A DNA stretch of 64,000 nucleotides, taken from contig CP158635.1 of assembly GCA_050273025.1 (NCBI GenBank), forward strand, positions 16,678,001 through 16,742,000, read 5' to 3'. Origin of the DNA: Cenococcum geophilum (taxonomy: Eukaryota). The notes beneath the pieces are model-generated. The model saw only the letters and a list, made by a program, of their open reading frames with translations. It had not been told where the DNA came from and did no database searches. The position numbers and the translations under genes are program-made. This document shows, one piece after another, positions 23,820-64,000 of the stretch. The first letter of the stretch is position 1, and each line of letters starts with the position of its first letter.

Positions 23820-24477
23820 ATAAGTTAAAGACCTAATATTAGACGCGCGCCCTCCTCTATTTAGAATAGCTTAACTTACAAATCCTTAAGGAGCTAGACC
23901 CCTAGTAAAACGAGCTAGTACTAATAGAGGAGTCCTTAAATAAGCTAATAGGGCTAATTAACCGCCTTCTAACTGCAAACTACATGGTTAACGCCTTAAG
24001 GGCTCTTCGTAAATAAGTAGTAAAAGGAAACCCCAATTTTAAAACGGAGGAAGGATTGCTCCTATACTAGGAGCGGCTTATAGTCCCTAATATTAATAAT
24101 CTATAGACTAAACTAATCCGTAAAGCTTATTGCTAAGTCTCTATAGTATACCCTAGTAAAAATAAGACCTATAAAATTATTAACTACTACTACTACTAGC
24201 CGAGAATAGTTGCGGATATTAATTAATATATATAGAACTGCGAAGATTACTAGAAAGCTATAATCCTATAGAATAAGACCCTAGGACTACTTAAGCCACT
24301 CCTAATACTAGAGCGCCCTTAGTAGTATATCTTTATAAACTTTTATAAACTACCTAGGGACCGTAACGGATATAATATAGTTATAGTTATAGTTAACCGC
24401 TTTAGTAAACGCCCGTTCTTAATTCCCTATTATAAAAACATTAATACTAAAGAGGCAGCCTAGCTATATATCTATTA

Positions 24478-26664: not shown

Positions 26665-27085
26665 TGTAACGTTTCCCGCCCCAACGTCGCCATTCGGCCA
26701 AAAAGACACGGAGTGCTTGCGAACTTGTTCGCAAGCGCGGCGGGATCTAATATATGTACTCTTACAATTGCCCTCCCCTCTGCGCGTTCGTCCTCGAACG
26801 CTAAGCCGCAGGGGGTCCGCATATAAAGAGTCGCACTATATATTAGGAGTCCCCAGTAACATAAGCAATTGGAATCTTTACCGACGCCTTATCGCACAGA
26901 TGCGCGTTAGACTGTACTAGAGCAAAGTAACCGATAGGGATCGAACCCACAACACCTAGCCCCAGTAAGTTCGCAAGCATAATTGTAACGTTTCCCGCCC
27001 TAACGTCGCCATTTGGCCAAAAAGACACGGAGTGCTTGCGAACTTATTCGCAAGCGCGGCGGGATCTAATATATGTACTCTTATA
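26665..27085 (-). mobile_element. TRIM (miniature non-autonomous LTR retrotransposon) copy 1, 421 bp
   Basis: 102-bp direct repeats at 26665-26766 and 26984-27085 with TG..CA ends (one RIPed). TSD AAGCC at 26660-26664 and 27086-27090. PPT on the minus strand ~26771-26781. Confidence 0.95.
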
Positions 27086-27406
27086 AAGCCCTAATATAGC
27101 TATCTACTAAATTCTGCTATATTCTACCGTTTTCTATTAATACCATAAAATTTTAGATATTTAGGAACTTTAACCGCCGGTTAAAGTTGTCTAATTAGTT
27201 AGATCTATACTAAGACTTTTAGCGGCTACTCTTTCTAGCCTAGTACTTTTACTTAGCCTATAATCGCCCTTTATACTTAATCTAGACGTACTTATATCCC
27301 CTTTATCTCCTTATCTTATATTTTTATAATCCTATATTTATAAGCCTAGTGCTACCCTATTTCTAACTAAGCCTAAAGGTAGGCTTTCTTTTAAAGAGGG
27401 GGGTGA

Positions 27407-38600: not shown

Positions 38601-39531
38601 GTTCCGGTAGTACTTAAGGTAGTAGGCGTTAGTAGCTTAGTATATATGGGTTTAGTAGGCCTAGGGGGCTTCTATAAAGTGGCCTTTAGGTAAGAGTTAG
38701 TAGTAGCAATTTAATTTAGTTGTTATTTAATCTTCTATAGAGCTGCTACTATATTATAAACATCGTTATAGTTATAGCTAGCGGCTGCGTAACTAAGGCA
38801 ATAAGTAACTTTTTTAAGGAGGTCCTCTTAGTCTTTAGTATTATCTTAGGTAAGGGCTCTAGTATATTCCTAGAATTTAATATAGAATTTATTAAATAAT
38901 TTAGTAGGGCTTATCTTTAGGACACGTAGTTTAGCTTAGTTAGTAGCTAGTAGGTTATAGTTATGGTATATTAGGTTAAGATTATTAAGGACTTTTTAGT
39001 AGGACTACTACTTTTAGGGGCTACTAGTTTCCTATTAGGCGAAGAGTCTATTAAACGGTATATATTATAGACGCTTTAAGTACAATATTACAACTACTTA
39101 GAGAAGAGACGGAAGAAGCTAGTTAGTTAATTTAGGTACGGTCTAGAATAGAGCCGATAGAACTATATAACGAGAAATGGTAATTAGGTTACGTAATGTG
39201 ATCTATATAATCTATATAATCTATATAATCTATAATAGAGTAGATAGAGCAGACAGAGTAGATAGAGTAATGACTTTCTTAGGAGTATAGATGTATATTT
39301 AAAGGACCACAGTCCCTACCTAGATAGTTCCTTTCCTTATAGTAATTCTTAGAATATAATTAGAGTTAATCTATTAGGTAACCACTCCACTAGTTATTAT
39401 TACGTTATTAACTTTTATATTTATATTTCCTATATACCTAGCCTAATAATAAGCCTATCGTAGTTCTTACTATAAGGTTCCGTTATATAATTACTACCTA
39501 GTTATAGTATTAATATAAGAAGTTAAATAAC

Positions 39532-42514
39532 ATGCTACTAAAAGCAGCCACTATAATGCTATTAACGGCAGCAACTACTTTAGGGATAGGAGGTAATACT
39601 AGTATAGTAAATACTAACTTATAGCAACCTATGATAGTTAGACAGCTATAGGAAATAGTTAACTAGCTAATAGCTAATAATATAGTATTAGAAGAAAGAC
39701 TTAATAGGATAGGAGCAGTAAAGATTAAGCTACTATTAATTAAGAGATTTATAGAAGAGAGGTTAAAGCTTAAAGGATTCCTTACGTAGATATACTTTAA
39801 GGTCTTATAAAAGGGAGTAAAGTTACCTATACCCGTGGATTAGATAGCCTACGTAGAACTATTCTTATTAGGAAAAGTATTTAAGTAGTTTAAATTTTAC
39901 TTTATAGAGATATAGGTAAACGGAATAACGACTACTAACTAAGATATGCGATTTATATTCTTAAGTTAGGAAGGATTTATAGAACGACTTATATAAATAT
40001 TTAGAAACCTAGAAGAAATAACTATAGCGGAAAAAAAACTCTAGAACCTTATATAATAAACTTTAGTAATTAAGTATATAATATAGTTCTAGACACTAGT
40101 AATATAAATAGAGTAAAATAATAGGGCGCTTATAGTATAGTATAAATAAGGACTTAAGGCTAAAGTCTAGGACGTAATTATTCTAATAGAAGATGCGGAT
40201 ACCCTAAGGGAACTAATAAATTAGGTAATTAAGATTAATAATTAGATCTACTAAAGGGAATAGGCTAAGAGAGGCTAGAATAAAGTTTTATAGTTATATA
40301 AGGCGTAAAGTACGCAATAATAAAAGCTAAGTTAAAAACTATAGTATAGCGCAAAGCTAATAGACTTAAGTAGTACTAAAAAAACCTATAAGAAATAGAG
40401 CAAACTATAAAAACCTAAAAGATAAAGATTAAGTAATTAAAGGTCTAAAGAGCAGAGGCTAAATTAGGGATCTTAATAGCAAAAGATATTTAGGCGGACT
40501 CTATAGCAAGAGAAATAGTTTAAAAAAGAAGCTTATATAAATTGCGGAAAATAGGATTATTATATTAGAGACTATAGAAGTAAATAGAGTTACTATATAG
40601 TAAAAGGCATAAGACTAGTAAACAATATATACGTATAAAGGGATAATAATATACTATAAGGAATAAAAGAATGTTTAATTAAAAGTTTTGCGTTTTATTA
40701 TAATAACACATACTAAATTTATAAGGACGCTAAGTATAGCGTAAGCTATTAGCTATAAGAGCTAGCACCTATAAGATATAAAGGAACTAATAAACTAGTT
40801 TATAGATTAGATATTAAGGACGATAAATTTAACCTAGGTAAAATATTCCGTAATAATAAGGTAATAAGGGCCGCTTACTAGGAGTAAGTAGACCTTAGAG
40901 ATGTTATACTAAAGGTAGAGGATAATTCCACTATAGAATAGGGAATATTAGTAGGGATCGAAACCCTACTAGACACAATATCTATCGCTTTATAAGACGT
41001 AAAAGAAGTAGAATAGTAAACCACTTTAGCACTTAATAAAGGCAAAAGGCTAAAGGCTTAAGATTCTTATAGCAAAATAAGAGATAACTAAGATTCTTAA
41101 AATAAGATAAGGTAAGCTTAAGAACTTATAATAGATAATAACCGATAAAGTAGAGCAGTAGCTTAGTTTAAAAATATATAAATAAGCTTAGGACGGAAGT
41201 TCCTATAGGTATAAGATTCTTAAGACAAAATAAGTAAGATTTAAGACTCTTAAGATAAGATAAGAACACTAAGTAAGCCTAGTTAGACTAAGGCTAGAGC
41301 TAAGCTTAAGTTAAAAGTAAGCTTAGGATTAAAGAACCTAAGGGGTTAAGAATTTAGGGTATAAATTAGGACACCTATAAATAAAAAGCAAGGAGCTTCT
41401 TTATAGATTAGAAAATCTATAGTATAAATAGTAATTAGACTAGGAGACGAATATATAGACCTAAAGGATTTACTAGTTAAATAAAGTATTTAGACTAAAG
41501 ATTAAAAAGTTAATACTAGGATTAAGAAGTAAAACGACTTTAAGGATTAGAGCGTAAGGCGTAAACCAAAAGAAACTATAAAAGAGTTTAGGTAAAGAAT
41601 TATTATATAGCAAAAATAGAAACTAGATAAGAGATTTAGCATATTAGGACGTATAAAAGACAAAGCACTAGTATAAAGAATTACTAATAGACTAAGAGTA
41701 GGCATACTAAGAGCTAAGTAGCTTATTAAACTAGAAGATAAAGAGGATTTAGGGATTCTAACTAGGTTTAAGAAACAATATACTAAAGGCTATTATAATA
41801 TAGTAATAAGAAGATACTTCCTTACGGATAGACTATATATACTCTAGTAGCTATACTAAAAGTGGTATAAACAAAGGCATAATAATAAGTAGGAAGATTT
41901 CTATATATAGTTAGATAAAAAAGTTATTTAGGACCACCTAATTATAGAGAAGGCTATAACGTATATTAAAGGAGCCTTAATTATAATATTAAAGAATCTA
42001 GAGGAATATTTAGAGGACTAGAGAAGTAAAAGACGTATTTTAGTACCTATAAATAAAGTTATAATATTTAGATTAGCATAATAAAGGTTTAAACTTAGGG
42101 ATAAAGACGAGCTAAGAGTTAACTTAAAGCACCTAGCATACTATACGTTATTATAGATTGCGTGTGTAGACGATATATATAAAATACATAAGAATCTAAA
42201 GGAAAAAAATTGGAAATACCCTATAAGGATATACTAGATAATGGATAAGTAATAGTATAGAAATGCTAAATATATATATAGATGGCATCTAGCAGAGATC
42301 TAAGAGGAAGGAAGTTTAGTACTTTAACTAGGAAGATTCCTTATAGAAGAATACTTAGATGGATAATAGTAGTAGGAATACCTAGAGAATATATATCTAT
42401 AGTATATTAAAGATAAAAAGCAAACTAGGTATTAGCTAAAGAGTAAGCTAAGTACACTAAGATTAAGTAGCTAATAGTTAGGAAAAGTAAAGGCCTACAG
42501 GACTAGAGGGAGCT
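39532..42514 (+). pseudogene. gag: gag of A5 (~990 codons including a long post-nucleocapsid extension); representative of A1-A6
   Basis: One frame from ATG 39532, interrupted only by RIP-type stops. Retrotransposon capsid motifs (LKGFLTQM, YKQGLK.EVQD, EPMDL). CX2CX4HX4C at ~40534-40575. Confidence 0.85.
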
Positions 42515-45500
42515 AGTAGTAGAGCCTTAAACCCTTAAAAGAATTTAAGGATAATACCTAAATTTATAAATTAATTGGTAAAATTAGCAGTTTAAAGCGC
42601 TAATAGATAGTAGAGTAACGCGAAACTATATCTTACTAGTAGTAGTTAAGAGAATGGGACTACCTTATAGATAAAAGGAGCAACCTTACCTATTAGTTAT
42701 AATTTTAGGAGATCTAATAACCTATAGAGGAGGGATTATTAATCTTAAAATAGGACCTATTTAAATAACTATTAAAGGAAGATAAATCGAGATATCTTTT
42801 AATATCCTACTATTAGGATGGGATGAGGCAGTATTAGGTATATCTTAGTTATAGAAATACAATCTAAGGATTAATTAGATTACAGGTCAGGTTAATATTA
42901 GAGATACTTAACGCCATAAAATATAACAATAAGCCAAGTTAATATAGTACTAAGTAGGAGCAACCTATAAAGAAATAGAAAAAGGACTAAGTTATATACT
43001 AAAGAGATACTATAAGTATAGTAAGAAACTATGGTCACCGGAAAGTAAAAAGCTATTAGAATATATAGTATAGGACTATAAGATAGAATTAGAACCAGGG
43101 ATAAGTCTAAAGTTTTTTCTAATCTATAAGCTTACTAAAAAAGAAGGTAGAGCATTAAAAGAGTTTATCTAAAAGAACTTACGAAAAGGATATATTAGAC
43201 CATCGCAGTTATTAGCAGGATATCCAGTACTATTCGTACTAAAGAAAAATGGTAAACTAAGGCTATATATCAACTATAGATAGTTAAACAGCATTACTAA
43301 AAAGAATAGGTATCCTTTACCCTTAATTAGCGAAATCTAAGATAGGATAGGTAATGCATAAATCTTTACGAAGATAGATCTAAGATAGGTATACTATTAG
43401 ATTAGGATTAAGGAGGGCAATAAATAAAAGGCAGCCTTTAGGTTAAAGGAAGGACTATATAAACTATTAGTTATATAATTTAGATTTATAAACGCACTGG
43501 CAATATTCTAGAAGCGTATTAATAATATATTAGGAGAATACTTAGATAAATTTGTTATAGTATATCTTAACAATATTATTATCTACTTAATAACTAAGAA
43601 AGAATATAAAGAACACGTTAAATAGGTTTTAAAAAGACTATAAGAAGAACAGATACTAGTAGTAATTAAAAAATATAAGTTCTTTACTAAGAAGACTAAT
43701 TTTATTAAAATTATTATTAAACTAGGCCAACTTAGTATAGATCTAAAGAAGATTAAGGCTATAGTAAATTAGTAAGAACTAGAGAACGTTATATAGTTAA
43801 GATCATTTCTAGGGTTTTGTAATTACTGTAAAAGGTTTATAGCGTAGTAGTTAAAGGATATTAAGCTATTTATAAGGTTAATAAAGAAAGAAGAACTATA
43901 GATATAGGGAGAGGAGTAAAGAGAACTCTTTAAAAAAGTTAAAGAGTTATTTACCTAGGGGCCAGTTCTTAAGATCTATTAACTAGGACTAGAGATGGTT
44001 ATAAAGATAGATATATTAAACTATATACTAGGGGTATACTTTATATAAAGGCATTAAGATAAATAGCACCTAATAGCATACTATAGTCAAAAGATAATAC
44101 CACTAGAATTAAACTATAACATCTATAATAAGGAGTTATTAGGTATAATTACAGCATTAAAGAAATAGAGAGCATTTTTATAAGGTATAGAGAAACTATT
44201 TATAGTTAAAACGGATTATAAGAACCTAATAGGATTCCTAATAATAAAGAAACTTAACTAAAGATAGGTTAGATGGGTAGAGATGCTTACAGAATACCAT
44301 TTTAAGATTTAGTATACTAAAGGTATAGACAATACGCGGGCAGATACTCTAAGCCGTAAAACTAAACTATAAAATAAGGAAAAGCCATTAGGGGCTTTAT
44401 TACGAAAAGATATAGACAGATTAATTAGATATAATTATCTAAAAATTATAGTAACTTAAGAAGATAATAAACTAGAGAAAGTTTACAAGATACCGGAAAG
44501 CTTTTAGGTATAAAGAATTCTAAAAGCATAGCTAGAAGATCTATAAATAGATATATACAAAAATTAAGAAGTAAAGTATATCCTAAGAAGTATAGTAGAA
44601 TAGTTTATAGAAGACTTTTATAAGGGACTAACTTAAGGATATAATAGAGCTATAGGCTTAGTGTTAAGACTCTAGGAGGAGTATATTATTAATAAAATTT
44701 AGAGAATAGCTAAAAAAGTTATAAAGGAATATTTAAATTGCTAAAGAAATAAACTAATAAGGCATAAGCCGTATAGAGGGCTATAACCTATTAAAACACT
44801 AGAAAGACTATAGGAGGTTATATTATAGGACTTTATTATTAAGTTATTAAAATTAAAAGATCCTATTACCGGATAAAATTATAATACGATCTTAGTAATA
44901 ATAGATAAGCTTATAAAGTGGGGATACTTTATAACCTATACGGAAGAAATATTAGCGGAAGATATTACTAGAATCTATATTAAAGAAGTATTTATAAAAT
45001 ATAGAGCACTAAGTAAAATTATATCGGATAAAGATTTAAGATTTATAGTAGCATTCTAGGAAGTATTCTTAGCAGAGTAAGGAGTTTAAGCAGCAACTTC
45101 TACCGTATACCATTTATAGACAAACGGTTAAATAAAAAGATTAAATTAGACGCTAGAGCAGTATCTAAGGCATTATATTAATTACGTATAGAATAATTAA
45201 GTATTACTATTACTAGTTATATAGTTTACATATAATATAACACCTTAAGAAGAAATAGGTATATTACTATTTAAGGCAAATTACGGATATAAGCTAAGAA
45301 TATTATTATTACTATAGCAAGTAAAGAAAATAAGTAGTATAGCTAAAAAAAGAATAAAGATATTAATAAATCTTTATATAGACCTTATAGAATTAGTAAA
45401 GAAAGTATAAAAAAGAATAAAAAAGTACTATAATGCTAAGAGATCTAAGGGACTAGATCTTAAGGAGGGAGATAAAGTATAGCTACTATACAAAAATTTC

Positions 45501-45896
45501 AAGAGTTAATAATTAAGTAAGAAGTTAGACTACGTTAAACTAGGACCTTTTAAAATTATATAAAAGATTTCACCGGTTATATTTAAGTTAAACCTACTAG
45601 CTAAAATAAAGATTTACCCTATACAGCATATTATAATACTAGAGCTAGTATATAGGAATATTAAGCCACCGGTTTATAAAGCAGACACATATAGAGAATA
45701 AGAAGAAGATAAATAGTAAGTATTAAAGATTGTTAATTATAAGGATATCGACAACGAAATATAGTATAAGGTTAAGTAGATAGGCTATACTAAGACTACC
45801 TAGGAGCTACTAGAGAATTTAAAAAACGCTATAGGAAAGGTACAGGAGTATTAGAAGAGATTAGGTTAGGCAGTATTAATAAAAAAGAATTACTAA
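42480..45896 (+). pseudogene. pol: pol of A5 (PR-RT-RH-IN-chromodomain), in the -1 frame relative to gag
   Basis: ALIDSGA ~42597, LRLCIDYR ~43257, YLDD ~43563, IN HHCC ~44617-44742, chromodomain WQVLKI...YKVKWIGY.ETTWEPLENL ~45713-45822. Confidence 0.9.
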
Positions 45897-48800
45897 AGAA
45901 TAAGTTACCTAAGGGGGACTTAAGAAGAGTAGTTGCCGAACTACTTAGATCTATTTCCTTTTCTATTAGAAAAGAGTCCGTTTTTTTATTACCTAATTTC
46001 TATAAACCTTATTCTATAAGTTTCCACTCCTTAAAACGTACCTTCTCGCGTACCTTCTTAAGACGGATTAACTAAGCAGAAGCAGCCAAATAAGAGTCTA
46101 GAGCACGTTATTAAGTATTAGTAGCCTCTCTCTTAGCATCCTAAAAATAATAAAGTTTAGCTAGAGTAACTAACAGCTCGTCATTTAGCCGCGTAGTAGT
46201 AGATTAAATATAAGACTCTAAGATAAATTAATTAGGGAACTAAAAGACTATTAAGAGTTATAGGACGCGTATACTTAGCGTTAGAAGTAAAGTAAATATC
46301 GTAGGACGATTATATATTTACTTTAGTGCACTCTAAATAAAAGGATAGTTATTAAGATAAAGGACTCGCTAGCGCGATATAGACTAACCCCTTTTTTAAA
46401 TAATAAGAATATAGAGACAGTATGATTTTACTAAGAGATAGTATTATAGTAATAGTATAAGACTAATGAACTATAGAAGAGGATAAAGGAGCCTTAGGTA
46501 TTATAAGTAATAATATTAACTAAATTAATTAGACGGATATTACACCTCTAATAAATAACTTAGAGATATTAAGAATCTTTAAGAACAAAGATAAAAAGGA
46601 GGGAGATAGTATTACAGACGCTTTAAGTATAATATTATAACTACTTAGAGAAGAGACGGAAGAAGCTAGTTAGTTAATTTAGGCACGGTCTAAAATAGAG
46701 CCAATAGAACCATATAATAAGGAATAGTAATTAGGTTACGTAATGTAATCTATATAATCTATATAATCTATATAATTTATAATAAAGTAGATAGAGCAGA
46801 TAAAGTAGATAGAGTAACGACTTTCTTAGGAGTATGGATGTGTATTTAAAGGACCACAGTCCCTACCTAGATAGTTCCTTTCCTTGTAGTAATTCTTAGA
46901 ATATAATTAGAGTTAATCTATTAGGCAACCACTCTACCAGTTGTTATTACGTTGTTGACTTTTATACTTGCATTTCCTACACACCTAGCCCAATAACGAG
47001 CCTATCGTAGTTCTTGCTACAAGGTTCCGTTACAGTATACCCTTTATTCGCCCGATAATATAGGCAATTTTAGTATCTTCTGTAGGAAAAAGGTAGGCGC
47101 TCTAAGTTAGTTTCTTATAGATTTATATCTTTTAGTAACTATATTCCTTACGGTCTCCCTAAAAGACTAAGGGATTAGAGTAGCGTACATTAGACCCTAC
47201 GGTGGCAGTTTAGGTCCAATTATTATAACTTTCGTTATTACTGCTTTAGTAGGGGTTTCTATTAGATAAAGCTGCTTAACGCTAGCCCTCTATTAAGCAT
47301 TAAGTAGGTAAAGTTACCGGGGGCGTAGAGACTTAGATGGCGTTATATATAGTAAAGAGCTTTAACTATCTTTAAATACAGGAAGGCGACGAATAGAAAA
47401 CCGCATTCGCATTGCGCTTTAGCCGGTTTGGGTATACCGTTATGCCCTTTAGCGTATATAACGGCCCAGGCACCTTCTAAAGCTATATTAATAACGCCTT
47501 ATAGGACTACCTTAATAACTTCTGCTCTACGTACCTAGACAATATACTTATTTATAGCAATAACCCCTTTAAGTATATTAAATACATTTAAAAGGTTTTA
47601 TAGCGCCTTAGGGATATAGGACTTTATATTAATTTAAAGAAATGCGAATTCTTAGCTATAGAAGTAAAATACCTTAAACTAATTGTTACTACTAAGGGTG
47701 TCTATATAGACCCCAAGAAGGTATATATAATTACTAAATAGTAAGCCCCTAACTGCATTAAGGATATATAAGCCTTCCTTAGTTTTGTTAACTTCTATTA
47801 GAAATTTATATATAACTTCTTAGGCGTAGTAGTATTACTTATAGTAATAATACAAACAAAGGGCCTTTCTGCAAAAGAAAGAAAAACGTACTTATACTTT
47901 ACCTAGATGCCTAAATACGAGAAGGCGTTCTATAACCTTAAAAATGCCTTTACTAAAGCACCTGTCCTAGCTTACTTTATACTAAGACGATAACTCTACC
48001 TTAAAACCAACTCCTTAAACTACGTTAATACAGGCGTCCTTTTCTAGATAGGTAATAACGGTTTTCTTTACCTAGTTGTATTCTACTTATCTAAGCTTAT
48101 ACTATAAGAGTGTAACTATAAGATCTATAATAAAGAACTCCTTATAATTATATAAGCGTTTAAAGAATTTTAACTAGAACTCTCCTTAGTAAAGCTTAAC
48201 TAGCTAATTAAAGTCCTTACGGACTATCGCAACCTTAAGTATTTTATAACTATAAAGTAGCTAAACTAATGCTAAGTATATTGGAACAAGTTCCTCTCTA
48301 GTTTTAACTTTAAAATTATATATAGACTAAGAGTATAAGGTACTAAACCTAATAGCCTAATACGCTGTTTATAAGATCTTCCTTAGTCTAAAGATAACCC
48401 CTATAATTAGTTCTAATAATAGACAATCCTAAAAGTATAAAATTTGGCCTTAGGCATACTACCTATAATAGAGCCAACTATACCCTAGCTTTATACCATA
48501 GAACTAGAGTTACCTCCTAAAATTAATAAGCTTATTACTACGGTATATAACGCCTCTGTTAACCTATTACTATATTAACTTATTATTGTAAAGACTACTA
48601 GCGCCTATATACTACCTACTAACCTTTAAAGCTTAGGCTAAATTAATATAGCAGCCTTAAAAGTAAAAGAGAATAGGCTTGATTATAGAGGCCGCCTATT
48701 TATCCTTAACTTAGAAAATCTATAACGGTAACTAATCTAAATAGCCTACGACCTTTAATTAAGCGGCTACCTAGGTAGAGGAGGAACCTACAAGCTTTTT

Positions 48801-50956: not shown

Positions 50957-51256
50957 TGTAAGCTTTGCAGTGTGTGGGAATTGAACGAGCGACTTGATTA
51001 TAAATCTATGGAAATCAAGTGGTATATATACATGAAAGTAGACCCCTAACTCCGGAGCCCATACAGTCGCTTCGGAAAGAGACGATCAAATGTCAGAAAC
51101 CATGATCAAAAATAGAAATTTGCCAAATCCTCACCTGTTTAAACCCTTTTTCTATACTCGCGCATGCCACCACCCATCCTCCATGCTAATATATCGCCGT
51201 CGCCTATTTTTTGAAGCTATTTGAAGCCTATATCGTTTCCTATTTTAGTTAGCGCC

Positions 51257-52978
51257 ATAACACACAGGAGGAGAGCCAAAGCACCCAAAAATACTGCAAA
51301 GAACACTTCTAAAGCGCCTAAAGAGGTAGACCTTACTGTTAAACCTGCACCACCTATACTAACGCCTTCTACTATTGTAGAACAGCCCAAAGATTATTAA
51401 ACCTTTATTTTAAATATAATTGTATACGCCGATACCATAAAGATATTTACTAACGTTCTAGCTATCCTGTTCGGAGCCTTTAAATACCAAGAGTTTATCG
51501 CCTAAAATACGCATTAAGCCAACGAATATTACGGTCTTCGTTCTTTCCAGCTTAATTAATTAACTGCCGTTATTGCGTCATCGAATCTAAAGGATCCTAT
51601 AATACCTAAAGAGGTTAACGATATAGATAAATGGCGCGAAGTAGAGGGAATAATAGAGGCACAGTTAAAGTACGTAAGGAGGGCATAGAGGGTTAATCTT
51701 ACAGTTAAATACAAGGCCGCTACTACACCTGTTAACGCGTCTGCTAATGCTAGAGACGCTAATTTTACTGCGGCTATTAATGCGGCGCTTTAAGTAAGAG
51801 GTATTCTAATTAAAGCAGCGGCTAATAAAGAGGCAGAGTCCTCTAGCGAGGATCACGAAGGTATAGTAAAGGAAGCTGCTAGTAAAAAGAAGGCGTTAAC
51901 TACTACTAAAATGCAGAAAGAGGCTGCTGAACGGCGTGAATGTGCAGAAGCTGAAAGCAAGCATCTATATGCGCTGGTTAAACGCCATTACTGCCTTTAA
52001 CAGCACTGTAAGAACAAAAAGCACAGTACTATATACTGTCTTAAATTTGACTTAAAGCACTACCTAATATAATCTTACCACTTAACGCGCTGGTTAGAAG
52101 CAATAGAATAAAAAAAAGCCACGGTTAATATACTAGATCTGTCCTTACTGTTAAAGATTAAGTATAGTCAGCACCTATAGAATAAGGAGGATAAAAAAGA
52201 TGTAAAGGCGTCTTCGGGCAGCTATAAGCACCGTTAAGGTAACTCTTATAGTACAGACAAATCAAGCTTCCCCCCCCAACAACGGCAGCAACGAGAGGCT
52301 TATACCACAGTTATATAATTACCAGCTAATTCTATTCAACAAGATCCATCACAAACGCAATTAACGCTTTTAATGAACTAGATGCAGCAGCAGAGCCAAA
52401 TACAGCAGCAGAACCAGCTACAGAACTAGTAGACGCTATAATAGTTGCAGAGTACTATACAGGTAGTACTGCCTTTAGTATTACCAACTATCGCCAACAG
52501 TCGTTTTATAGTGGATCCTATACTAAATATAAGACCTTTAGTGCCTTCTTTACGGAGCGCTCCATCCAATTCTACTCCATTCTCTAAAACGCCTACCGGT
52601 CCTTACTATCCACTCTTAAATACGCCTTCTACTAGCCTGCTACCTAGCAGCCCCGCCCACAGTAATATTAAATAATTAGATAGTAAGCTTAGCGCCTTTA
52701 TTAAATGGCTATAAAGCCGTTATCTAGCTTTCGCCCACGCCTTTACTAAAGCGGAGTCAATTTTGGTCGACAAGTACTACACCTTTAAGATACTTAAGCA
52801 TATGCTGCTTAATAATAATATAGGCCATGCAAAGCTATATAGGATTAGCTTAACATACGGGCTCATTAATTACATAGTAGATAACTTAGAGGACTTTAGA
52901 ATAGATTAGCGACGTTATAGTGCTGCAGCAGAGGCCTTACTTAACGTCTTAGTTAATAGGCGCTCTATATAACAATAG
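51257..52978 (+). pseudogene. Transposon accessory ORF (~570 codons), unknown function; Cys/His motif, Q-rich tract
   Basis: Continuous frame from GCC-AT(G>A) at 51257 with only TAA/TAG RIP-type stops. The track ORF 52445-52675 is in this frame. The exact stop is uncertain. Confidence 0.75.
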
Positions 52979-53000
52979 ACCTTATCCTTCCCTTTATCTA

Positions 53001-54515
53001 CTACTTAATTCCTGCCCGTAAGAAATAGCCTTTTGCCCTTTTATTAAATCCTTATTGCTCTACCGCATAGTTTAAAAAGTCACTAAAGTTATTCTATAGT
53101 TTAGCTTTAAATTAATAAGTACGCAGCCACTACTTTAAGTCATAAAAAGAGGCCTTAATTGGATTAAAATTGGGTAAGTGTAAGAGTATATATATTAGGT
53201 CCCGCCGCGCTTACAACAAGTTCGCAAGCACTCTCAGTCTTTTTGGCCGTATGGCGACGTGGAGGCGGGCCACGTTACAATTGTGCTTGCGAACTTACTG
53301 GGGCCAGGTATCATAGATTCGATCCCTATCGGTTACTTCGCTCTAGTATAGTCTAACGCACATCCGTGTAATGAGGTATTAGTGAAGATTCCAATCGCTT
53401 ATGTTATTGGGGACTAACTAATATAGTAATACTTTTGGCGTTTAATCCCTGTGGCGCGAACGGGCGTATAGAGGAATCCCTGCGAGCGCTCAAGGACGAG
53501 CGCGCAGAGGAGAGGGCAATTGTAAGAGTATATATATTAGGTCCCGCCGCGCTTGCGACAAGTTCGCAAGCACTCTCAGTCTTTTTGGCCGTATGGCGAC
53601 GTGGAGGCGGGCTACGTTACAGTAAGTAAGGAGGAAGATATTTAAGTTTAACACTAGCAGCATTGCAGAGGCGTTAAACTTCCTAGATTTAAGTAAGCAG
53701 CAGCGTTAGCGCGCCTATCCTTTATGGTTACTATATACCTTATTATAATGGATTAATATATTATCTATTACTAAAACTAAACGAGGCTATAGATAAGGCT
53801 GCATATAAGTAAAAACCTCGTTCTTTATTTACTAAATAAATATTAACCCGTTAACAGAGCCTTAGTATATTAACCAACTAGGTATATAGCCCTGCTAGGT
53901 ATACGCTAGTAGTAAGCTCTATCTTTTAAATCTCTTTAATTCCGACATTCCTTTAGTAGGCTTATTAATAGGTGCCCACCTATACTTCCTATCTATTGTC
54001 TTCTTATTATAAGCTAATTCGTTAATAAAAATAAACTAATTGCGCCTATAGCTACAGGTCCAAATAATCTAGTCGTCTCTTAAGCCTAGGTTGCGTTATT
54101 GCGCAATTATCCTTATAACCTTTCTACTCCATCTCCTTTGCTTTAATCCAGCCAATAGCGTACTCCGTGCCACTATTATATTATATTTATTGTATAGAAA
54201 CCAGAGCATCTCTTTAAAATAGGCGTCTGGGCTATATAAGAGGTATTTAAGGAGGCCCTAAGGTACGCGTTAATAAATTAATATTAATAATACCTAACGT
54301 TATATATCTAGAGCCTCATCCATAAGCAGCAGCGGCCTACTACTCGCCTTAATTGGTGGATTAATCTAGCCAAATCTCCTTAAATTTACCCTCTAACGTT
54401 AAAGAGTAGGTCAAGGAACGCGGGTCTTAACTTCTATATAGAAATTGTCGTTGCCGAGGTTAATTAGAGCTTATACAATCGACTTCTGTTTAGTTAACTA
54501 GGCAGGTTTACCCAT
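53001..54515 (-). pseudogene. DD34E transposase (Tc1/IS630 superfamily), two predicted introns, interrupted by a TRIM
   Basis: ATG 54515. De-RIPed FIFIDESA...RKYGWAP, RWSLLPAY, PRSVLVMDN.SIH and LEYLPPYSPDFNPIE, with 34 residues between the second D and the E. Introns ~54305-54258 (donor RIPed) and 53738-53683 (GT..GCTAAC..AG). Confidence 0.92.
53179..53621 (+). mobile_element. TRIM copy 2, 443 bp
   Basis: 101-bp LTRs at 53179-53279 and 53521-53621. TSD GTAAG at 53174-53178 and 53622-53626. PPT AGAGGAGAGGG at 53506-53516. Homologous to copy 1. Confidence 0.96.
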
Positions 54516-54747
54516 AGCTTTAAATATAAGGTAATAATAAGGTGATGGGTGGTGGCATGCGCGAGTACAGAAAAAGGGTTCAAACAGGTGAGGATTCGGC
54601 AAATTTCTATTTTTGATCATGGTTTCTGACATTTGATCGTCTCTTTCCGAAGCGACTATAAGTCATTTGAACCATATCCGAGATATGCGAGGGTAGTGCT
54701 AATGTAGGTGAAACAGGGTAATATATAAGGTCCGGTAGTCGGTTATA

Positions 54748-56137: not shown

Positions 56138-59100
56138 TGTAACGGAACCTTGTAGCAAGAACTACGATGGGTTCGTTAATAGGCTAGGTGTATAGGAAAT
56201 GCAAGTATAAAAGTCAACAATGTAATAATAACTGGTGGAGTGGTTGCCTAACAAATTAACTTTAATTGTATTCTAAGAATTACTATAAGGAAAGGAACTA
56301 TCTAGGTAGGGACTAAGGGTCCTTAAATACACAACCGTATTCCTAAGAAATCCTTTCTTATATGTGAGGTACGTGTGGTCCGTATTAAACGTAACGTTCC
56401 TTATATTTAACATAGCTAACACGTTTAACCGTTATATGACTTACTTACTATTTCTTATTATATAGTTCTACGGGTTCTATTTTAGACTGTACCTATATTA
56501 ACTAACTAGCTTCTTCTGTCTCTTCTTTAAGTAGTTATAATATTGTACTTAAAGCGTCCGTAACACTATCTCCCTCCTCTTTATCTTTATCCTTAAAGAT
56601 TTAAAATATCTCTAAGTTATTTACTAGAGGTATAATGTTTATCTAATTAATTTGGTTAATATCGTTACTTATAATACCTAAAGCACTTTCTTCTCTTTCT
56701 TAGGTTGAGCGTCGCCTCTGTACCGTTTCCTTAATATTATCTCTAGGTAAAATAATAGCGATCCCTTACTCTTATTGTGTAAAAGAGGGGTTAAGTTACG
56801 TTATAATTGCGAATCCTTCCAGTTACTAACCCTCCTCCTATTCTAAATATACTCGCGCTAATATACGTTTATTATATAACGTTTGTTCTATATCTAATAC
56901 TAAGTATATATATTCTATTACTCTTAACAGTCTTTAAGTTCCCTAAGTAATTTGTTATAGGGTCTTATATTTAGTCTACCGCTGCCAAACTTAATAGTAA
57001 GCTAGCCTCTGCGCTACTCGCGGTTTAGCGTGCCTTAGAAGAGTCCGCATATATCCTTAAAGCTTAGCGTCTAGCTTATATTTATCTTTAGCGTCTAGAA
57101 TATATTTATAAGAAGGTTTGTTTTAAGGAGTAGAAACTTATAAAATAAGGTTTATAAGAACTTGGTAATAAAAGAACGGATTCTCCTTTAATAGAGAAGG
57201 AAACAGATCTAAGTAGTTCGGCAACTGCTCTTCTTAGGTCCCCCTTAGGTGACTTATTCTTTAGCAATCCTTCTTTATTAATACTGCCTAACCTAATCTC
57301 TTCTAATACTCCTGTACCTTTCTTATAGCGTTTTTTAAATTCTCTAGTGGCTCCTAGGTAGTCTTAGTGTAGCCTATCCACTTAACCTTATACTATATTT
57401 CGTCGTTAATGTCCTTATAACTGACGATCTTTAATACTTACTATTTATCTTCCTCTTATCCTTTATATATATCTGCTTTATAAACCAGTGGCTTAATATT
57501 TCTATATACTAGCTCTAGCATTACAATATGCTATATAGGGTAGATCTTTATTTTAGCTAGTAGGTTTAACTTAAACGTAACCAGTAAAATCCTCTATATA
57601 ATTTTAAAAGGTCCTAGTCTAACATAGTCTAATTTCTTACTTAGTCGTTAACTCTTAAAATTTTTATATAGTAGCTATACTTTATCTCCCTCCTTAAGAT
57701 CTAGTCCCTTAGATCTCTTAGCATTATAGTACTTTTTTATTCTCTTTTATACTTTCTTTACTAATTCCATAAGGTCTGTATAAAGATTTATTAATATCTT
57801 TATTCTTTCTTTAGCTATACTACTTATTTTCTTTACTTACTATAGTAATAACGATATTCTTAGCTTATATCTATAATTTGCCTTAAATAGTAATATGCCT
57901 ATTCCTTCTTAAGGTGTTATATTATATATAAACTATATAACTAGTAATAGCGATACCTAATTATTCTGTGCATAATTAATATAATGCTTTAGATACTGCT
58001 CTAGCGTCTAATTTAATCTTTTTATTTAACCGTCTATCTGCGGATAATATACGGTAGAAGTTGCTGCTTAAACTCCTTACTCCGCTAAAAATACTTCCCA
58101 AAATATTACTATAAATCTTAGATCTCTATCCAATATAATCTTACTTAGTGCTCTATATCTTATAAACACTTCTTTAATATAGATTCTAGCGACATCTTTT
58201 ACTAAGATTTCTTCTATACATGCTATAAAGTATCCCCACTTTATAAGCTTATCTACTATTACTAAAATCGCGTTATAATCTTATCTGGTAATAGGATCTT
58301 TTAATTTTAGCAACTTAATAATAAAGTCCTATAATATAACCTCCTATAGTCTCTCTAGTATTTTAATAGGTTGTAGCCCTCTATATAGCTTATGCCTTAT
58401 TAGTTTATTCCTTTAGCAATTTAGATATTCCTTTATAACCTTTCTAGCTATCCTTTAGATTCCGTTAATAATATACTCCTCCTAGAGTCTTAATACTAAG
58501 CCTATAGCTCTATTATGTCCTTAAGTTAGTCCCTTATAGAAGTCCTCTATAAACTACTTTACTATACTTCTTAGGATATACTTTACTTCTTAATTTTCGT
58601 ATATATCCGTCTATAAATCTTCTAGCTATACTTCTAGAATTCTTTATACCTAAAAGCTTTCTAGTATCTTATAGACTTTCTCTAGTCTATTATCTTCTTA
58701 AGTTGCTATAATTTTTGGATAATTATATCTAATTAATCCGTCTATATCTTTTTGTAATAAAGCCCCTAATAGCTTTTCCTTATTTTATAGTTTAGCTTTA
58801 CGGCTTAGAGTATCTACCCGCGTATTATCTGTACCTTTAGTATACTAAATCTTAAAATAGTATTCCGTAAGCATCTCTACCCATCTAACCTATCTTTAGT
58901 TAAGTTCCTTTATTATTAGGAATTCTGTTAAGTTCTTATAATCCATCTTAACTATAAATAGTTTCTCTATGCCTTATAAGAATGCTCTCTATTTCTTTAA
59001 TACTATAACTATACCTAATAACTCCTTATTATAGATATTATAGTTTAACTCCAGTAGTATTATCTTCCGACTATAATATGCCACTAGGTGCTATCTATCT

Positions 59101-62100
59101 TAATACCTTTATATAAAGTACGCCCCTAGTATATAGTCTAATATATCTATTTTTATAACTATCTCTAGTCCTAGTTAATAGATCTTAAGAACTGGCTCTT
59201 AGGTAAACAATTCTTTAACTTTTTTAAAGAGTTCTCTCTACTCCTCTCCCTATGTCTATAGTTCTCCTTTCTTTATTAACCGCGTAAATGGCTTAATATC
59301 CTTTAACTACTACGCTATAAACCTTCTATAGTAATTGCAAAACCCTAGGAATAATTTTAACTATATAACGTTCTCTAGTTCTTACTAATTTACTATAGCC
59401 TTAATCTTCTTTAGATCTATACTAAGTTAGCCTAGTTTAATAATAAATCTAATAAAATCGGTCTTCCTAGTAAAGAACTCGCATTTTTTAATTGCTACTA
59501 GTATCTGTTCTTCTTATAGTCTCTTTAAAACCCATTTACCGTATTCCCTATATTCTTCCTTAGTTATTAAGTAGATAATAATATCGTTAAGATATACTAT
59601 AATAAATTCATCCAAGTGTTCTCTTAATACGTTATTAATACGCTTTTAGAACGTTGCTAGTGCGTTTATAAGCCCGAATTATATAACTAGTAGTTTATAT
59701 AGTTCTTCCTTTAACCTAAAGGCTGCCTTTTATTTGTTGCCTTCCTTAATTCTAATCTAATAGTACGCCCATCTTAAATCTATCTTTGTAAAGATTTACG
59801 CATTGCCTATCCTATCTTAGATCTCGCTAATTAAGGGTAAAGGATACCTATCCTTCCTAGTAATGCTGTTTAACTATCTATAGTTAATATATAGCCTTAG
59901 TTTACTATTCTTCTTTAGTATAAATAGTACTGGATAACCCGCTAATAACTGCAATAGTCTAATATATCCCTTTCGTAGGTTTTCCTAGATAAACTCTTTT
60001 AACGCTCTACCTTCTTCTTCAGTAAGCTTGTAGATTAAAAAGAACTTTAGACTTATTCCTAGTTCTAACTCTATTTTATAGTCCCATGCTATATATTCTA
60101 ACAGCTTTTCACTTTCTAGTGACTATAGTTTCTTGCCGTACTTATGGTATTTCTTTAGTATATAACTTAGTCCTTTTTCTATTTCTTCATAGGTTGCTCC
60201 TACTTAGTACTATACTAACTTGGCTTATTATTACATCTTGCGGTATTAAATATCTCTAATATTAACCTAACCTATAATCCAATTAATCCTTAGATTGTAT
60301 TTCTGTAATTAAGGCATACCTAATACTACCTCGTCCCGTCCCAATAGTAGGATATTAAAAGATATCTTAATTTATCTTCCTTTAATAGTTATCTAAATAG
60401 GTCCTGTTTTAAGATTAATAATCCCTCCTCTATAGGTTATTAGATCTCCTAAAATCGTAACTAATAGGTAAGATTGCTCCTTTTATCTATAAGGTAATCC
60501 TATTCTTTTAACTGCTGCTAGTAAGATATAGTTCCGCGTTACTCCACTATTTATTAGCACTTTAAACTATTAATTTTACCAATTAATTTATAAGTTTAGG
60601 TGTCGTCTTTAAATTCCTTTAAGGGTCTAAGGTTCTACTACTGGCTCCCTCTAGTCCTATAGGCCTCTACTTTTCCTAACTATTAGCTGCTTAATCCTAG
60701 TATACTTAGCTTACTCTTTAGCTAATGCCTAGTTCGCTTTTTATCTTTAATATACCATAGATACGTGTTTTCTAGGCATTCCCACTACTATTGTTTATCT
60801 AAGCATTCTTCCATAAGGAATCTTCCTAGTTAAAGTACTAAACTTCCTTCCTCTTAGACCTCTATTGGATGCCATCTATATATATATTTAGTATTCTTAT
60901 ACTATTACTTATCTATTATCTAGTATATCCTTATAGGGTATTTCCGATTCTTTTCTTTTGGATTCTTATGCATTTTGCATATATTATCTACATATATAAT
61001 CTATAATATTATATAGTATGCTGGGTGCTTTAGGTTAACTCTTAGCTTGTCTTTATCCCTAAGTTTAAACCTTTATCGTGTTAATCTAAACGTTATAACT
61101 TTATTTGTAGGTACTAAGATACATTTCTTACTTCTCTAGTCCTTTAAATATTCCTCTAGATCCTTTAACGTTATAATTAAGGCTCCTTTAATATATATTA
61201 TAGCCTTTTCTGTAATCGGGTGGTCCTAAATAACTTTTTCATCTAACTATATATAGAAATCTTCCCACTTATTATTGTGTTGTTGTCTATACCACTTTTA
61301 GTACAGCTGCTTAAGTGTATATAGTCTGTCCATAAGGAAATATCTCTTTATTGCTACGTTGTGACAGCCTTTAGTATATCGTTCTTCGAACCTAGTAGGA
61401 ATCCCTAAATCCTCTTCTTATTCCAATTTAGTAAGCTACTTAGCTCTTAGTATACCTACTCTCGGCCTATTAGTAATTCTTTGTACTAGTGCTCTGTCCT
61501 TTATACGTCCTAATATACTAGATCTCTTATCTAGTTTCTATTCTTACTATAAGGTAATTCTTACTCTAAATTCCTCTATAGTTTCCTTTACGTCATGTCT
61601 TATAAGTAGATCCTTAAAGTCTCCTTACTTCTTAATCTTGGTATTAACTTTTTAATCTTTAATCCGAATACTTTGTTTAACTAGTAAGTCCTCTAGGTCT
61701 ATATACTTATCTCCCAGTCTAATTACTATTTATGCCGTAGATTCTCTAATCTATAAAGAAGCTCTTGGCCTCTTATCTATAGGTGTTCTAATTTGTACTC
61801 CGAATTCTTAACTCCTTAGATTCTTTAATCCTAAGCTTGCTTCTAACTTAAGCTTAGCCCCTGCCTTAGTCTAACTAGGCTTAACTAGTGTCCTCGTTTT
61901 GTCTTAAGAGTCCTAGATCTCATTTATCTCGTCTTAAGAATCTTGTGCCGTTGGGAATTCTTGTCCTAAGCTTATTCGTATATCTTTAAACTAAGCCGCT
62001 GCTCTACTTTATCGGTTTCTGTCCGTTATAGGTCCTTAAGCTTGCCTTATCTCGTCTTAAGAATCTTAGTTGTCTCTTATCTCTTCTTAAGAATCTTAAG

Positions 62101-64000
62101 CCTTTGGCCTTTTGCCTTTATTAAGTGCTAAAGTTGTTCGCTGTTCTACTTCTCTTATGTCTTATAAAGCAATAGATATCGTGTTTAGTGGGGTTTTAAT
62201 CCCTACTAATATTCCCTATTCTATAGTAGAATTATCCTCTACCTTTATTATAATATCTCTAAGGTCTGCTCGCTCCTAGTAAGCGGCCCTTATTGCCTTA
62301 TTATTACGGAATGTTTCGCCTAGGTTGAATTTATTATCTTTAATATCCGATCTGCGAACTAGTTTATTAGTTCCTCTATATCCTACAGGTGCTAGCTCTT
62401 ATAGCCAATAGCTTACGCCGTACTTAGCGTCCTTATAAATTCGGTATATGTTGTTATAACAAAACGTAAAACTTTTAATTGAATATTCCTTTGTTCTTTA
62501 CAGTATATTATTATCCCTTTATATATGTATATTGTCTGCTAATCTCGTTCCTTTTACTATATAGTAACTCTGCCTACTTCTATAGTCTCTAATATAATAA
62601 CCCTATTTTCCGCAATTTATATAAGCTCCTTTTTTGAACTATTTCTCTTGCTATAGAGTCCGCCTAAATGTCTTCTGCTGTTAAGATCCCTAATTTGGCT
62701 TCTGCTCCTTAGACCTTTAATTACTTAATCCTTATCCTCTAGGTTTCTATAGTTTGCTCCATCTCTTATAGGCTTCTTTAATACCACTTAGGTCCATTAG
62801 CTCTGCGCTATATTATAGTTTCTAACTTAGCTTTTGTCGTTGCGTACTCTGCGCCTTATACAACTATAGAACTCTATTCTAGCCTTTCTTAGCCTATTCC
62901 CTTTAGTAGATCTAATTATTAATCTTAATCGCCTAATTTATTAGTTCCCTTAGGGTATCCGCATCTTCCATTAGGATAATCGCGTCCTAGACTTTAGCCT
63001 TAAGTCCCTATTTATACTATACTATAAGCGCCCTATTATTCCACTCTACTTATATTACTAGTATCTAGAACTATATCGTATACTTAATTGCTAAAGTTTG
63101 TTGCATAAAGTTCTAGAGTTTTCTTTCCGCTATAGTTGTCTCTTCTAGGTCTCTAAATATCTACGTAAGTTGTTCTACAAATCCTTCCCAACTTAAGAAT
63201 ATAAATCGCACGTCTTAGTTAGCGGTCGTTATTCCGTTTGCCTATATCTCCATAAGGTAAGACTTAAACCACTTAAGTGCTTTTCCTAATAAGAATAGTT
63301 CTGCGTAGGCTATCCGATCCACAGGTATAGGTAACTTTACTCCCTCCTATAAAACCTTAAAGTGCATTTATATAAGGAATCCTTTAAGCTTTAACCTCTC
63401 TCCTATAAATCTCTTAATTAATAGTAGCTTAATCTTTGCTGCTTCTATTCTATTAAGTCTTTCTTCTAATACTATATTATTAGCTATTAGCTAGTTAACT
63501 ATTTCCTATAGCTGTCCGACCGTCACAGGTTACTATAAGTCAGTATCCGCCATACTGGTGTCACCTCCTGTTCTTAAAGTAGTTGCTGCCGTTAATAGCG
63601 TCGTAGTGGCTGCTTTTGGTAGCATGTTATTTAACTTCTTATATTAATACCGTAACTAGGTAGTAATTGTGTAACGGAACCTTATAGCAAGAACTATAAT
63701 AGGTTTATTAATAGGCTAGGTGTATAGGAAATGTAAGTATAAAAGTTAACAATGTAATAATAACTGGTGGAGTGGTTGCCTAATAGATTAACTCCAATTA
63801 TATTCTAAGAATTACTATAAGGAAAGGAACTATCTAGGTAGGGACTAAGGGTCCTTAAATACACAACCGTATTCCTAAGAAATCCTTTCTTATACGTGAG
63901 GTACGTGTGGTCCGTATTAAACGTAACGTTCCTTACATTCAACACAGCCAACACGTTTAACCGTCATATGACTCGCTTACCATTCCTCGTCACATGGTTC
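56138..64000 (-). mobile_element. Gypsy family A, copy A6 (5' LTR runs off the window end)
   Basis: 3' LTR 56138-56565, 5' LTR from 63670. Left flank CTCTA. Internal region colinear with A1/A4. Distinct U3 variant. Confidence 0.96.

What the first reader, a model, noticed from the sequence alone, without database searches (positions are those of the whole stretch)
53179..53621. Self-priming (tRNA-independent) TRIM family, two diverged copies
Seen: a 420-440 bp element with ~101-bp LTRs, a PPT and a 5-bp TSD, here and at 26665-27085. Just after the 5' LTR there is no TGG tRNA primer site. Instead, TGCTTGCGAACTT (53284-53296) is a perfect 13-nt complement of AAGTTCGCAAGCA inside the LTR (53218-53230), ~25 nt downstream of a TATA run. 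Both motifs are conserved in copy 1 although other parts differ (indels, LTR ends). Known: Tf1/sushi-group elements prime from their own 5' end, whereas typical TRIMs use tRNA. Inference: a minimal parasite of a self-priming chromovirus and a compact natural model of the required cis signals.
Basis: partly seen in the sequence, partly recalled or inferred. Interest (0 to 1): 0.72.

Follow-up and report, generated by a model that had tools for sequence, protein, structure and literature searches.

The report
Self-priming miniature fungal LTR retrotransposon
This is a 0.44-kb, gene-less jumping element of a fungus that most likely starts copying itself with the first 14 letters of its own RNA instead of a borrowed tRNA and borrows its enzymes from a larger element, so it is a well-supported miniature version of a known mechanism.

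Summary
The element is real. Both copies are TRIMs with 101-102-bp LTRs and 5-bp TSDs; copy 1 lies on the minus strand, and the duplex is 14 nt, not 13.

The family has at least 127 LTR-plus-PBS junctions. The proposed test passes: R and PBS change together across six haplotypes, which a fixed tRNA cannot give. Against this, 8 of 10 variant-R elements keep the common PBS, and RNA reads show no start site.

Three further results:
- Compound insertions inside one TSD preserve unprocessed cDNA ends and R/PBS snap-backs.
- Four join the TRIM to a 7.8-kb chromovirus with the same 3-nt spacer and PPT but a different 9-nt primer. It is the likely helper.
- A U3 arm hides the 3' copy of the primer. 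Scrambling it in silico lets that copy take the PBS.

A Pol III promoter is weakly supported. This scan noted the family before in this genome, and similar elements in other fungal genomes. My paper searches found no self-priming TRIM in print. Verdict: new variant of a known kind.

The parts
53179..53621 (+). TRIM copy 2 (subfamily A), 443 bp, non-coding
   Evidence: longest ORFs overlapping it are 48-64 aa
53174..53178 (+). 5-bp TSD, left copy (right copy 53622-53626)
53179..53279 (+). 5' LTR (101 bp)
53187..53197 (+). TATA run in a very short U3; kept in all subfamilies aligned
   Evidence: promoter role inferred
53209..53217 (+). U3 arm of the 5' LTR, complementary to R; two RIP-type G>A hits here, intact in the 3' LTR
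53218..53231 (+). R1-14: predicted RNA 5' end and self-primer
   Evidence: start site not shown
53246..53255 (+). small 3-bp hairpin in R/U5, overlapping an A-box-like motif (53244-53254)
53257..53275 (+). U5 stem-loop; four invariant pairs and one pair changed on both sides between subfamilies
53280..53282 (+). 3-nt spacer ATT = unprocessed right end of the cDNA, kept in end-to-end joins
53283..53296 (+). 14-nt PBS, exact complement of R1-14
53313..53329 (+). tRNA T-arm-like hairpin (B-box-like core), RIP-hit in this copy
   Evidence: not in every subfamily
53410..53436 (+). internal segment complementary to the start of U3; would close a long stem around the PPT
   Evidence: fold of copy L007; core present in 101 of 113 units
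53506..53517 (+). polypurine tract, followed by AAT (53518-53520) = unprocessed left end
   Evidence: join L254
53521..53621 (+). 3' LTR (101 bp)
53551..53573 (+). 3' U3 arm plus second copy of R1-14: hairpin that would hide the 3' copy of the primer
26665..27085 (-). TRIM copy 1 (subfamily B), 421 bp; TSD at 26660-26664 and 27086-27090
26984..27085 (-). copy 1 5' LTR; R1-14 at 27032-27045
26967..26980 (-). copy 1 PBS (first base hit by a RIP-type G>A)
26665..26781 (-). copy 1 PPT (26770-26781) and 3' LTR (26665-26766)

Best explanation
A non-autonomous LTR retrotransposon (TRIM) that primes minus-strand synthesis the way Tf1 does. Proposed cycle: (1) a TATA box in a 39-nt U3 starts an RNA at about 53218 (inferred); (2) its first 14 nt fold back on the PBS across a loop holding two small stems (pairing shown by covariation); (3) a helper RT/RNase H cuts after nt 14 and extends from the PBS edge (cut inferred from Tf1; the edge is shown by joins that keep exactly the ATT spacer); (4) the PPT primes the plus strand, leaving AAT at the left end; (5) a helper integrase trims 3 nt and inserts with a 5-bp TSD (TSD shown). 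The likely helper is chromovirus family X (L182-L185), which has the same spacer, a near-identical PPT and the same two end sequences, but its own 9-nt primer. A U3 arm folds over the 3' copy of R1-14, probably so that this copy cannot take the PBS in an RNA of only about 370 nt (inferred from folding).
For: Of 113 LTR-PBS junctions, 73 match R1-14 at 14 of 14 and 103 have no transversion mismatch. Six primer haplotypes each occur with their own PBS (common; L041 and L061; L120; L143; L188; L189 and L186). In 14 hand-picked rows, 6 of 14 pairs change on both sides, and 0 of 500 shuffles reach the covariation score. Positions 3, 4 and 11 carry transversions that RIP cannot make. No TGG; the longest PBS complement in 11 host tRNA genes is 7 nt. 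L210 and L049 each hold U3 + R1-14 + spacer + inverted LTR inside one TSD, the product expected if a PBS copy primes on R1-14. L013 keeps a 13-nt PBS copy at a cDNA end, as about 50% of Tf1 cDNA does (PMC11042837, passage). Four TRIM-X joins at U5 ends, three with a TSD around the pair, and none with the more abundant family Y (first-look candidates 2703 for X, 5014 for Y). X has RT, RNase H, integrase zinc finger, SH3_Tf2-1 and chromodomain. U3 arm: scrambling it lets the 3' R take the PBS (probability above 0.5 in 18 of 20 shuffles, against 0.0001 native). A relative is transcribed on the sense strand if the library is the usual stranded type (988 against 17).
Against: In the main variant subfamily, 8 of 10 5' LTRs with the variant R carry the common PBS, and one unit has the reverse mismatch. 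No start or end pile-up in the one raw-read run; LTR depth there was only 20-30 against about 1000 inside, and the reads come from a diverged relative. The covariation rows were chosen for diversity and are related, so the shuffle count is not a probability. Only 11 host tRNA genes were recovered. TRIM and X share no homology beyond PPT and termini, and end-joining in the nucleus does not need co-packaging. The U3-arm effect was weak in four of ten copies (median 3'R-PBS 0.01-0.10 after scrambling), and folding during transcription would favour the 5' duplex anyway. The fold shows no clear three-duplex 'pretzel' flanking the PBS.
Confidence: 0.85

Rival explanations
1. Priming in trans: the 14-nt primer can come from another co-packaged TRIM RNA (usually the common type) rather than only from the same molecule, and only its 3' ten bases must pair.
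For: 8 of 10 variant-R units carry the common PBS. Five units have 5' and 3' LTRs of different subfamilies inside one perfect TSD (L044, L048, L050, L054, L089), so two RNAs or cDNAs do contribute to single insertions.
Against: Rare haplotypes (L120, L143, L188, L189) carry their own PBS although common-type elements far outnumber them. The mixed units are also explained by plus-strand transfer between molecules with cis priming.
Confidence: 0.25
2. Same element, different helper: family Y of this window or another chromovirus supplies the enzymes, and the TRIM-X joins come from chance end-joining of free cDNAs in the nucleus.
For: Y also has a self-complementary PBS and is more abundant. One X end is joined to a non-TRIM sequence (L252). 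No sequence homology ties the TRIM to X beyond PPT and termini.
Against: No TRIM-Y join among 30 of 33 pattern hits read (the other three were not fetched by that call). Y has a 5-nt spacer and a PPT that abuts the LTR, while X matches the TRIM's 3-nt ends.
Confidence: 0.3
3. The RNA is made by Pol III from a split tRNA-type promoter (A box in U5, B box after the PBS), making this a self-priming cousin of Helenus.
For: A 5-bp-stem, 7-nt-loop T-arm shape follows the PBS; a B-box-like core is found in 103 of 113 units. It shares 17 consecutive bases with host tRNA gene L198, whose D arm also resembles the U5 motif.
Against: The invariant tRNA A14 position is T in 85 of 113 LTRs. Two amplified groups (3 copies each, L051 and L061 types) have T55>C, and L143 and L188 lack the arm. 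A run of five T lies 23 nt after the start. No tRNA or Rfam hit.
Confidence: 0.15
4. A host tRNA or tRNA fragment is the primer, and the R/PBS match is kept only by template switching between inverted repeats.
For: The common PBS dominates, also in units with a changed R. The host tRNA set was only partly sampled.
Against: Six PBS haplotypes track their own R at six positions, whereas a tRNA-primed PBS would be pulled back to one host sequence. No TGG; no tRNA match over 7 nt.
Confidence: 0.06

Closest known systems
Tf1 and Tf2 (Schizosaccharomyces pombe), Tj1, Tosmo1-3, Tcry1: Tf1/sushi group of chromoviruses
   Same: PBS complementary to the start of R instead of a tRNA; PBS copy can stay on the cDNA end (10.1101/2022.12.06.519325 section 28; PMC7175516 and PMC11042837 passages).
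   Different: No coding capacity. 14-nt primer against 11 in Tf1. R-PBS loop of 51 nt with two small stems and no clear pretzel. Primer differs from that of the likely helper.
TRIMs (Witte et al. 2001, seen only as a reference; definition from PMC6934838 and PMC10886601 passages)
   Same: Under 1 kb, 100-250-bp terminal direct repeats, PBS, PPT, no ORF, 5-bp TSD, many copies, solo LTRs and tandem units.
   Different: The published definition has a tRNA-complementary PBS; here the PBS is complementary to the element's own R.
Helenus, Cassandra and Ajax (TRIMp3; PMC10886601, results section part 1 and passages read)
   Same: Small non-autonomous LTR elements, fungal members, 5-bp TSD, tRNA-like sequence present.
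   Different: There the tRNA-like boxes lie within the LTR and the primer is a tRNA end or anticodon loop; the paper found no LTR-PBS complementarity for the tRNA-like part. Here only a T-arm-like hairpin lies inside, the A box is not conserved, and the primer is R.
biv-TRIM of bivalves and fungal GalEa Copia elements (PMC6934838 passages)
   Same: No canonical tRNA PBS.
   Different: Their hairpins lie within the inner domain and no mechanism was assigned; here the PBS pairs with the LTR and covaries with it.

Membership tests
TRIM | Under 1 kb with two 100-250-bp direct repeats | tested here: met
   105 two-LTR units, 325-473 bp, LTR 98-104 bp
TRIM | No protein-coding capacity | tested here: met
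   Only 48-64-aa ORFs overlap copy 2
TRIM | PPT before the 3' LTR | tested here: met
TRIM | Integrase-type TSD | tested here: met
   87 of 105 perfect 5-bp TSDs, 6 with RIP-type change, 12 none, mostly tandem or compound units
TRIM | PBS complementary to a tRNA (as worded in PMC6934838) | tested here: not met
   No TGG; at most 7 nt against 11 host tRNA genes (partial set); PBS follows own R. Filed as TRIM-type by structure, with a non-canonical PBS.
Tf1/sushi self-priming group | PBS within a few nt of the 5' LTR, complementary over 10 nt or more to an LTR segment | tested here: met
   14 bp, 3 nt from the LTR; criterion from PMC6317226 methods
Tf1/sushi self-priming group | The complementary segment is the RNA 5' end | tested here: inconclusive
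   No start pile-up; low LTR depth; U3 reads mostly carry the PPT, so come from 3' LTRs
Tf1/sushi self-priming group | Three-duplex pretzel around the primer duplex | tested here: inconclusive
   Folds give the central duplex and two local stems, not the two flanking long-range duplexes
Tf1/sushi self-priming group | RNase H cleavage releases the primer | not testable with these tools
   Needs biochemistry
Tf1/sushi self-priming group | Own Gypsy-order pol with chromodomain | tested here: not met
   The TRIM has none. Family X has RT, RNase H, integrase zinc finger, SH3_Tf2-1 and Chromo; no tree was built for X. So it works like Tf1 but is not a member.
Helenus / TRIMp3 | tRNA-like A and B boxes inside the LTR | tested here: not met
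   B-box-like arm is internal; A14 is T in 85 of 113; no tRNA call
Helenus / TRIMp3 | tRNA-primed PBS | tested here: not met

The most novel reading that the evidence does not exclude
A roughly 370-nt RNA is a complete, sequence-flexible self-priming replicon. It hijacks a chromovirus RT/RNase H that normally cuts a different, shorter primer, so the enzyme reads shape and not sequence. It also carries a dedicated U3 guard hairpin that hides the 3' copy of the primer from the PBS, a design rule that may hold for self-priming elements generally (families X and Y show U3/R hairpins too). The genome's compound insertions record its reverse-transcription intermediates.
Probability: 0.35. Interest if true: 0.7.

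Novelty: new variant of a known kind. Interest (0 to 1): 0.5.

Why it matters
Self-priming is proven by experiment for Tf1 and inferred elsewhere from one complementary stretch per element, as far as the papers I saw go. Here a natural series of primer/PBS double changes, and integrated cDNA joins that fix both cDNA ends, give independent in-vivo support. A 370-nt RNA is a convenient substrate for probing and priming assays. It also shows that annotation pipelines that demand a tRNA PBS will miss or misjudge such TRIMs. It does not reveal a new mechanism.

Tried and rejected
Same-strand alignment of the two copies failed; copy 1 is inverted.

Rfam (E up to 5) and ARAGORN found nothing in the element.

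An autonomous element with the same LTR and PBS was not found. Of 116 distinct LTR-PBS sites held, 109 run through TRIM internal sequence to a 3' LTR. The other 7 are two snap-backs and five interrupted or truncated TRIMs. One search listed only 100 of its 127 hits, so some sites were never read.

The loose junction pattern is not enriched as a count (9 hits, 26 in the control); only the individual loci read afterwards are used.

A supposed third LTR family 'Z' at L266 and L221 is the end of an unrelated repeat inserted into TRIM copies; dropped.

Mapping the minus-strand transfer point from chimeric LTRs was not decisive; only a handful of chimeras among 238 LTRs.

Perfect U3-arm/R covariation is not true: 10 of 47 variant-R LTRs keep the old arm, all without a neighbouring PBS or PPT. 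The new arm never occurs with the old R, which fits compensation after the R change.

The sequence look-up of earlier findings gave nothing. Contig depths of runs X1, X3 and X5 show presence in RNA libraries only, not level, strand or ends.

Full report
OBSERVATION. The element is at the stated place. Copy 2 (53179-53621, +) is 443 bp with two 101-bp LTRs, a PPT at 53506-53517 and the TSD GTAAG. Copy 1 (26665-27085) is 421 bp, lies on the minus strand and is 79% identical. After the 5' LTR come three bases (ATT) and then 14 bases (53283-53296) that are the exact complement of 53218-53231. Shuffled LTRs gave at most 10 (2000 shuffles), and the fold has z = -4.6. The surrounding DNA is AT-rich with the TpA excess and CpA/TpG loss typical of RIP, so the host is inferred to be a RIP-competent filamentous ascomycete. 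Copy 2 sits in a decayed DDE transposon and copy 1 next to decayed Gypsy pol sequence.

FAMILY. G000 (178 Mb, 7 contigs) gave about 400 first-look candidates and 127 LTR-spacer-PBS hits (100 listed). 87 have a perfect 5-bp TSD, 6 one with a RIP-type change and 12 none; most of the 12 are tandem or compound units. The junction pattern required the ATT spacer, so its presence in all 113 is by construction. Nearly all differences between paired LTRs are transitions (351 of 354), so RIP, not age, drives them.

COVARIATION. 73 of 113 junctions pair at 14 of 14 positions and 103 have no transversion mismatch. Six primer haplotypes each occur with their own PBS: the common one, the L041/L061 type, L120, L143, L188 and L189/L186. 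On 14 rows picked for diversity, 6 of the 14 pairs change on both sides, and neither shuffles nor slid partners come near. One of these six (position 12) is a double RIP-type change and carries little weight, and the rows are related. Positions 3, 4 and 11 are transversions that RIP does not make. A PBS that follows the element's own R at several positions cannot be the imprint of one host tRNA. None of the 11 host tRNA genes recovered matches it over more than 7 nt. Against: in the L041 subfamily 8 of 10 5' LTRs with the variant R carry the common PBS, and L063 has the reverse mismatch. So the 5' four bases of the primer need not pair, or primers and templates mix between molecules. Five units with LTRs of two subfamilies inside one TSD show that such mixing happens.

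FOSSIL INTERMEDIATES. Several insertions are two molecules joined end to end with one TSD outside and none at the join. A double insertion at one site would leave the TSD in the join (PMC5932611, passages). L043 joins two right ends as CA-ATT plus AAT-TG, and L254 joins a right end to a left end. The cDNA therefore ends three bases beyond each LTR, and the minus strand starts at the PBS edge. L013 joins a right end to an LTR carrying 13 bases of PBS and nothing further. Tf1 keeps a PBS copy on about half of its cDNA (PMC11042837, passage). L210 and the left end of L049 read U3, R1-14, spacer, inverted LTR, each within a TSD. That is what results if a plus strand ending in the PBS copy folds onto R1-14 and is extended. 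Loose ends at the same position in runs X1 and X3 look like the L049 join, which argues against an assembly error. These products show that R and PBS pair during cDNA synthesis; they do not prove that R is the normal primer.

HELPER. No long element shares the TRIM's LTR and PBS among the 116 sites held. Four TRIM copies are joined at their U5 end to the U5 end of family X: L024 and L212/L247 (solo X LTR, TSD around the pair), L003 (full-length X, TSD ATACC) and L030 (far end not found). X is about 7.8 kb. Read with X at stops, it shows RT, RNase H, integrase zinc finger, SH3_Tf2-1 and a chromodomain. It has its own 9-nt R/PBS pair after the same ATT spacer, and a near-identical PPT. Its two end sequences are the TRIM's two ends swapped. 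Family Y, the 8-kb element that fills this window, also has a self-complementary PBS but a 5-nt spacer, has more candidates (5014 against 2703) and gave no TRIM join among 30 of 33 hits read. I put X as helper at about 0.65. Homology is limited to PPT and termini, and nuclear end-joining is a fair rival.

U3 ARM. Just upstream of R lies an arm complementary to it. It forms a hairpin in the best-kept copy of every haplotype group with more than two members. It is transcribed only at the 3' end. In the predicted 372-nt RNA of copy L007 the 5' R takes the PBS (0.95) and the arm holds the 3' R (0.99). With the arm scrambled, the 3' R takes the PBS in 18 of 20 shuffles. Across ten copies, nine have native 3'R-PBS pairing of 0.000. 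Scrambling raises it to medians of 0.01-0.60, control scrambles do not, and L119, whose arm is RIP-damaged, already shows 0.64. 37 of 47 variant-R LTRs carry a compensating arm change, and the changed arm never occurs with the old R. A guard role is my inference (about 0.45); these are equilibrium folds with an assumed 3' end. An internal segment complementary to the start of U3 would also close a stem around the PPT; similar stems are described for Sire and HIV (PMC3601003, passage).

PROMOTER AND RNA. A TATA run starts 31 nt before the predicted start. A T-arm-like hairpin after the PBS shares 17 bases with host tRNA gene L198. But the A-box position A14 is T in 85 of 113 LTRs, two amplified groups change T55, two copies lack the arm, and five T lie at +23. 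Pol II is more likely. In the one raw-read run (X21, 12% read), 1074 reads were laid, nearly all from a relative at 90-95% identity. They are stranded 988 to 17, which means sense RNA in the usual protocol. No start or end pile-up appeared and LTR depth was 20-30. 25 reads with PPT overhangs account for most U3 depth, so U3 coverage comes from 3' LTRs. The start site and a unit-length RNA remain unshown.

COMPARISON. It works like Tf1, whose first 11 bases pair with the PBS and are cut off by RNase H (PMC7175516, passage), but it is not a member of the Tf1/sushi group because it has no pol. It meets the structural TRIM definition except for the tRNA-type PBS (PMC6934838, passages). It is not Helenus (PMC10886601: abstract, passages and the first part of the results). 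Fungal TRIMs are reported without PBS analysis in the two papers I checked (PMC4112212 and PMC4646964, passages). Searches found no paper describing a self-priming TRIM; one search was seen as a listing only. The library lacks most subscription papers, and I did not read Repbase or any supplement. Levin 1995 and 1996, Lin and Levin 1997, Butler 2001, Witte 2001 and Atwood-Moore 2006 were seen only as references or through other papers' words. Other papers seen: 10.1101/2022.12.06.519325 (passages and section 28 part 2), PMC6317226, PMC4600332 and PMC5341516 (passages).

EARLIER NOTES. This scan has noted the same family at other places in this genome, and similar elements in other fungal genomes. 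They are leads, not support. I had the Pol III idea before seeing them (note) and reached the same low estimate by my own counts. No note matched the end-join words I searched.

VERDICT. A real, multi-copy, self-priming TRIM: a new variant of a known kind. Self-priming 0.85, helper X 0.65, guard hairpin 0.45, Pol III 0.15. Interest 0.5.

Noticed in passing
window 29026-36995 (-), 39063-47034 (+), 15788-23817 (-), 56138-64000 (-), 1-7557 (-), 7560-12910 (+): Six copies of an 8-kb RIP-degraded Gypsy family (Y) with 421-bp LTRs. It has RT, RNase H and SH3_Tf2-1 and its own self-complementary PBS, with a palindrome at the predicted U3/R border.
   Followed up: partly
window 51062-54660: Decayed DNA transposon with 117-bp terminal inverted repeats (97% alike) and a DDE_3 remnant; copy 2 is inserted in it.
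   Followed up: partly
window 23830-26659: Decayed Gypsy integrase region (zinc finger and SH3_Tf2-1) with about 1 kb of other sequence between the two domains; copy 1 lies just after it.
   Followed up: no
L059:1499-2139: Head-to-head TRIM dimer with no 5' LTRs, joined at the two spacers, both PBS of the variant type, inside one TSD CATAA. Origin unexplained.
   Followed up: partly
L017/L058, L046, L232: Three-LTR tandem TRIMs sharing a middle LTR, some mixing subfamilies.
   Followed up: no
L122-L151: An older LTR group with a self-complementary hexamer on both hairpin arms, mostly solo LTRs; its outer U3/R pairs also change together.
   Followed up: partly
L188:1389-1615: Shortest two-LTR unit (325 bp, 127-bp internal region). 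It keeps PBS, the next 12 bases, the anti-U3 segment and PPT, a hint at the minimal signals.
   Followed up: partly
L252:1500: An X-type LTR end joined through the same double spacer to a non-TRIM sequence.
   Followed up: no
L266, L221, L314-L319: End of an unrelated repeat (57 candidates), probably a DNA transposon terminus, inserted in two TRIM copies.
   Followed up: partly
L192:1501-1571: AT-rich tRNA gene called with anticodon TTA; looks like a RIP-hit or organelle-derived copy.
   Followed up: no
L063:1750-1877: 3' LTR with a short duplication of U3 that ends inside the U3 arm.
   Followed up: no
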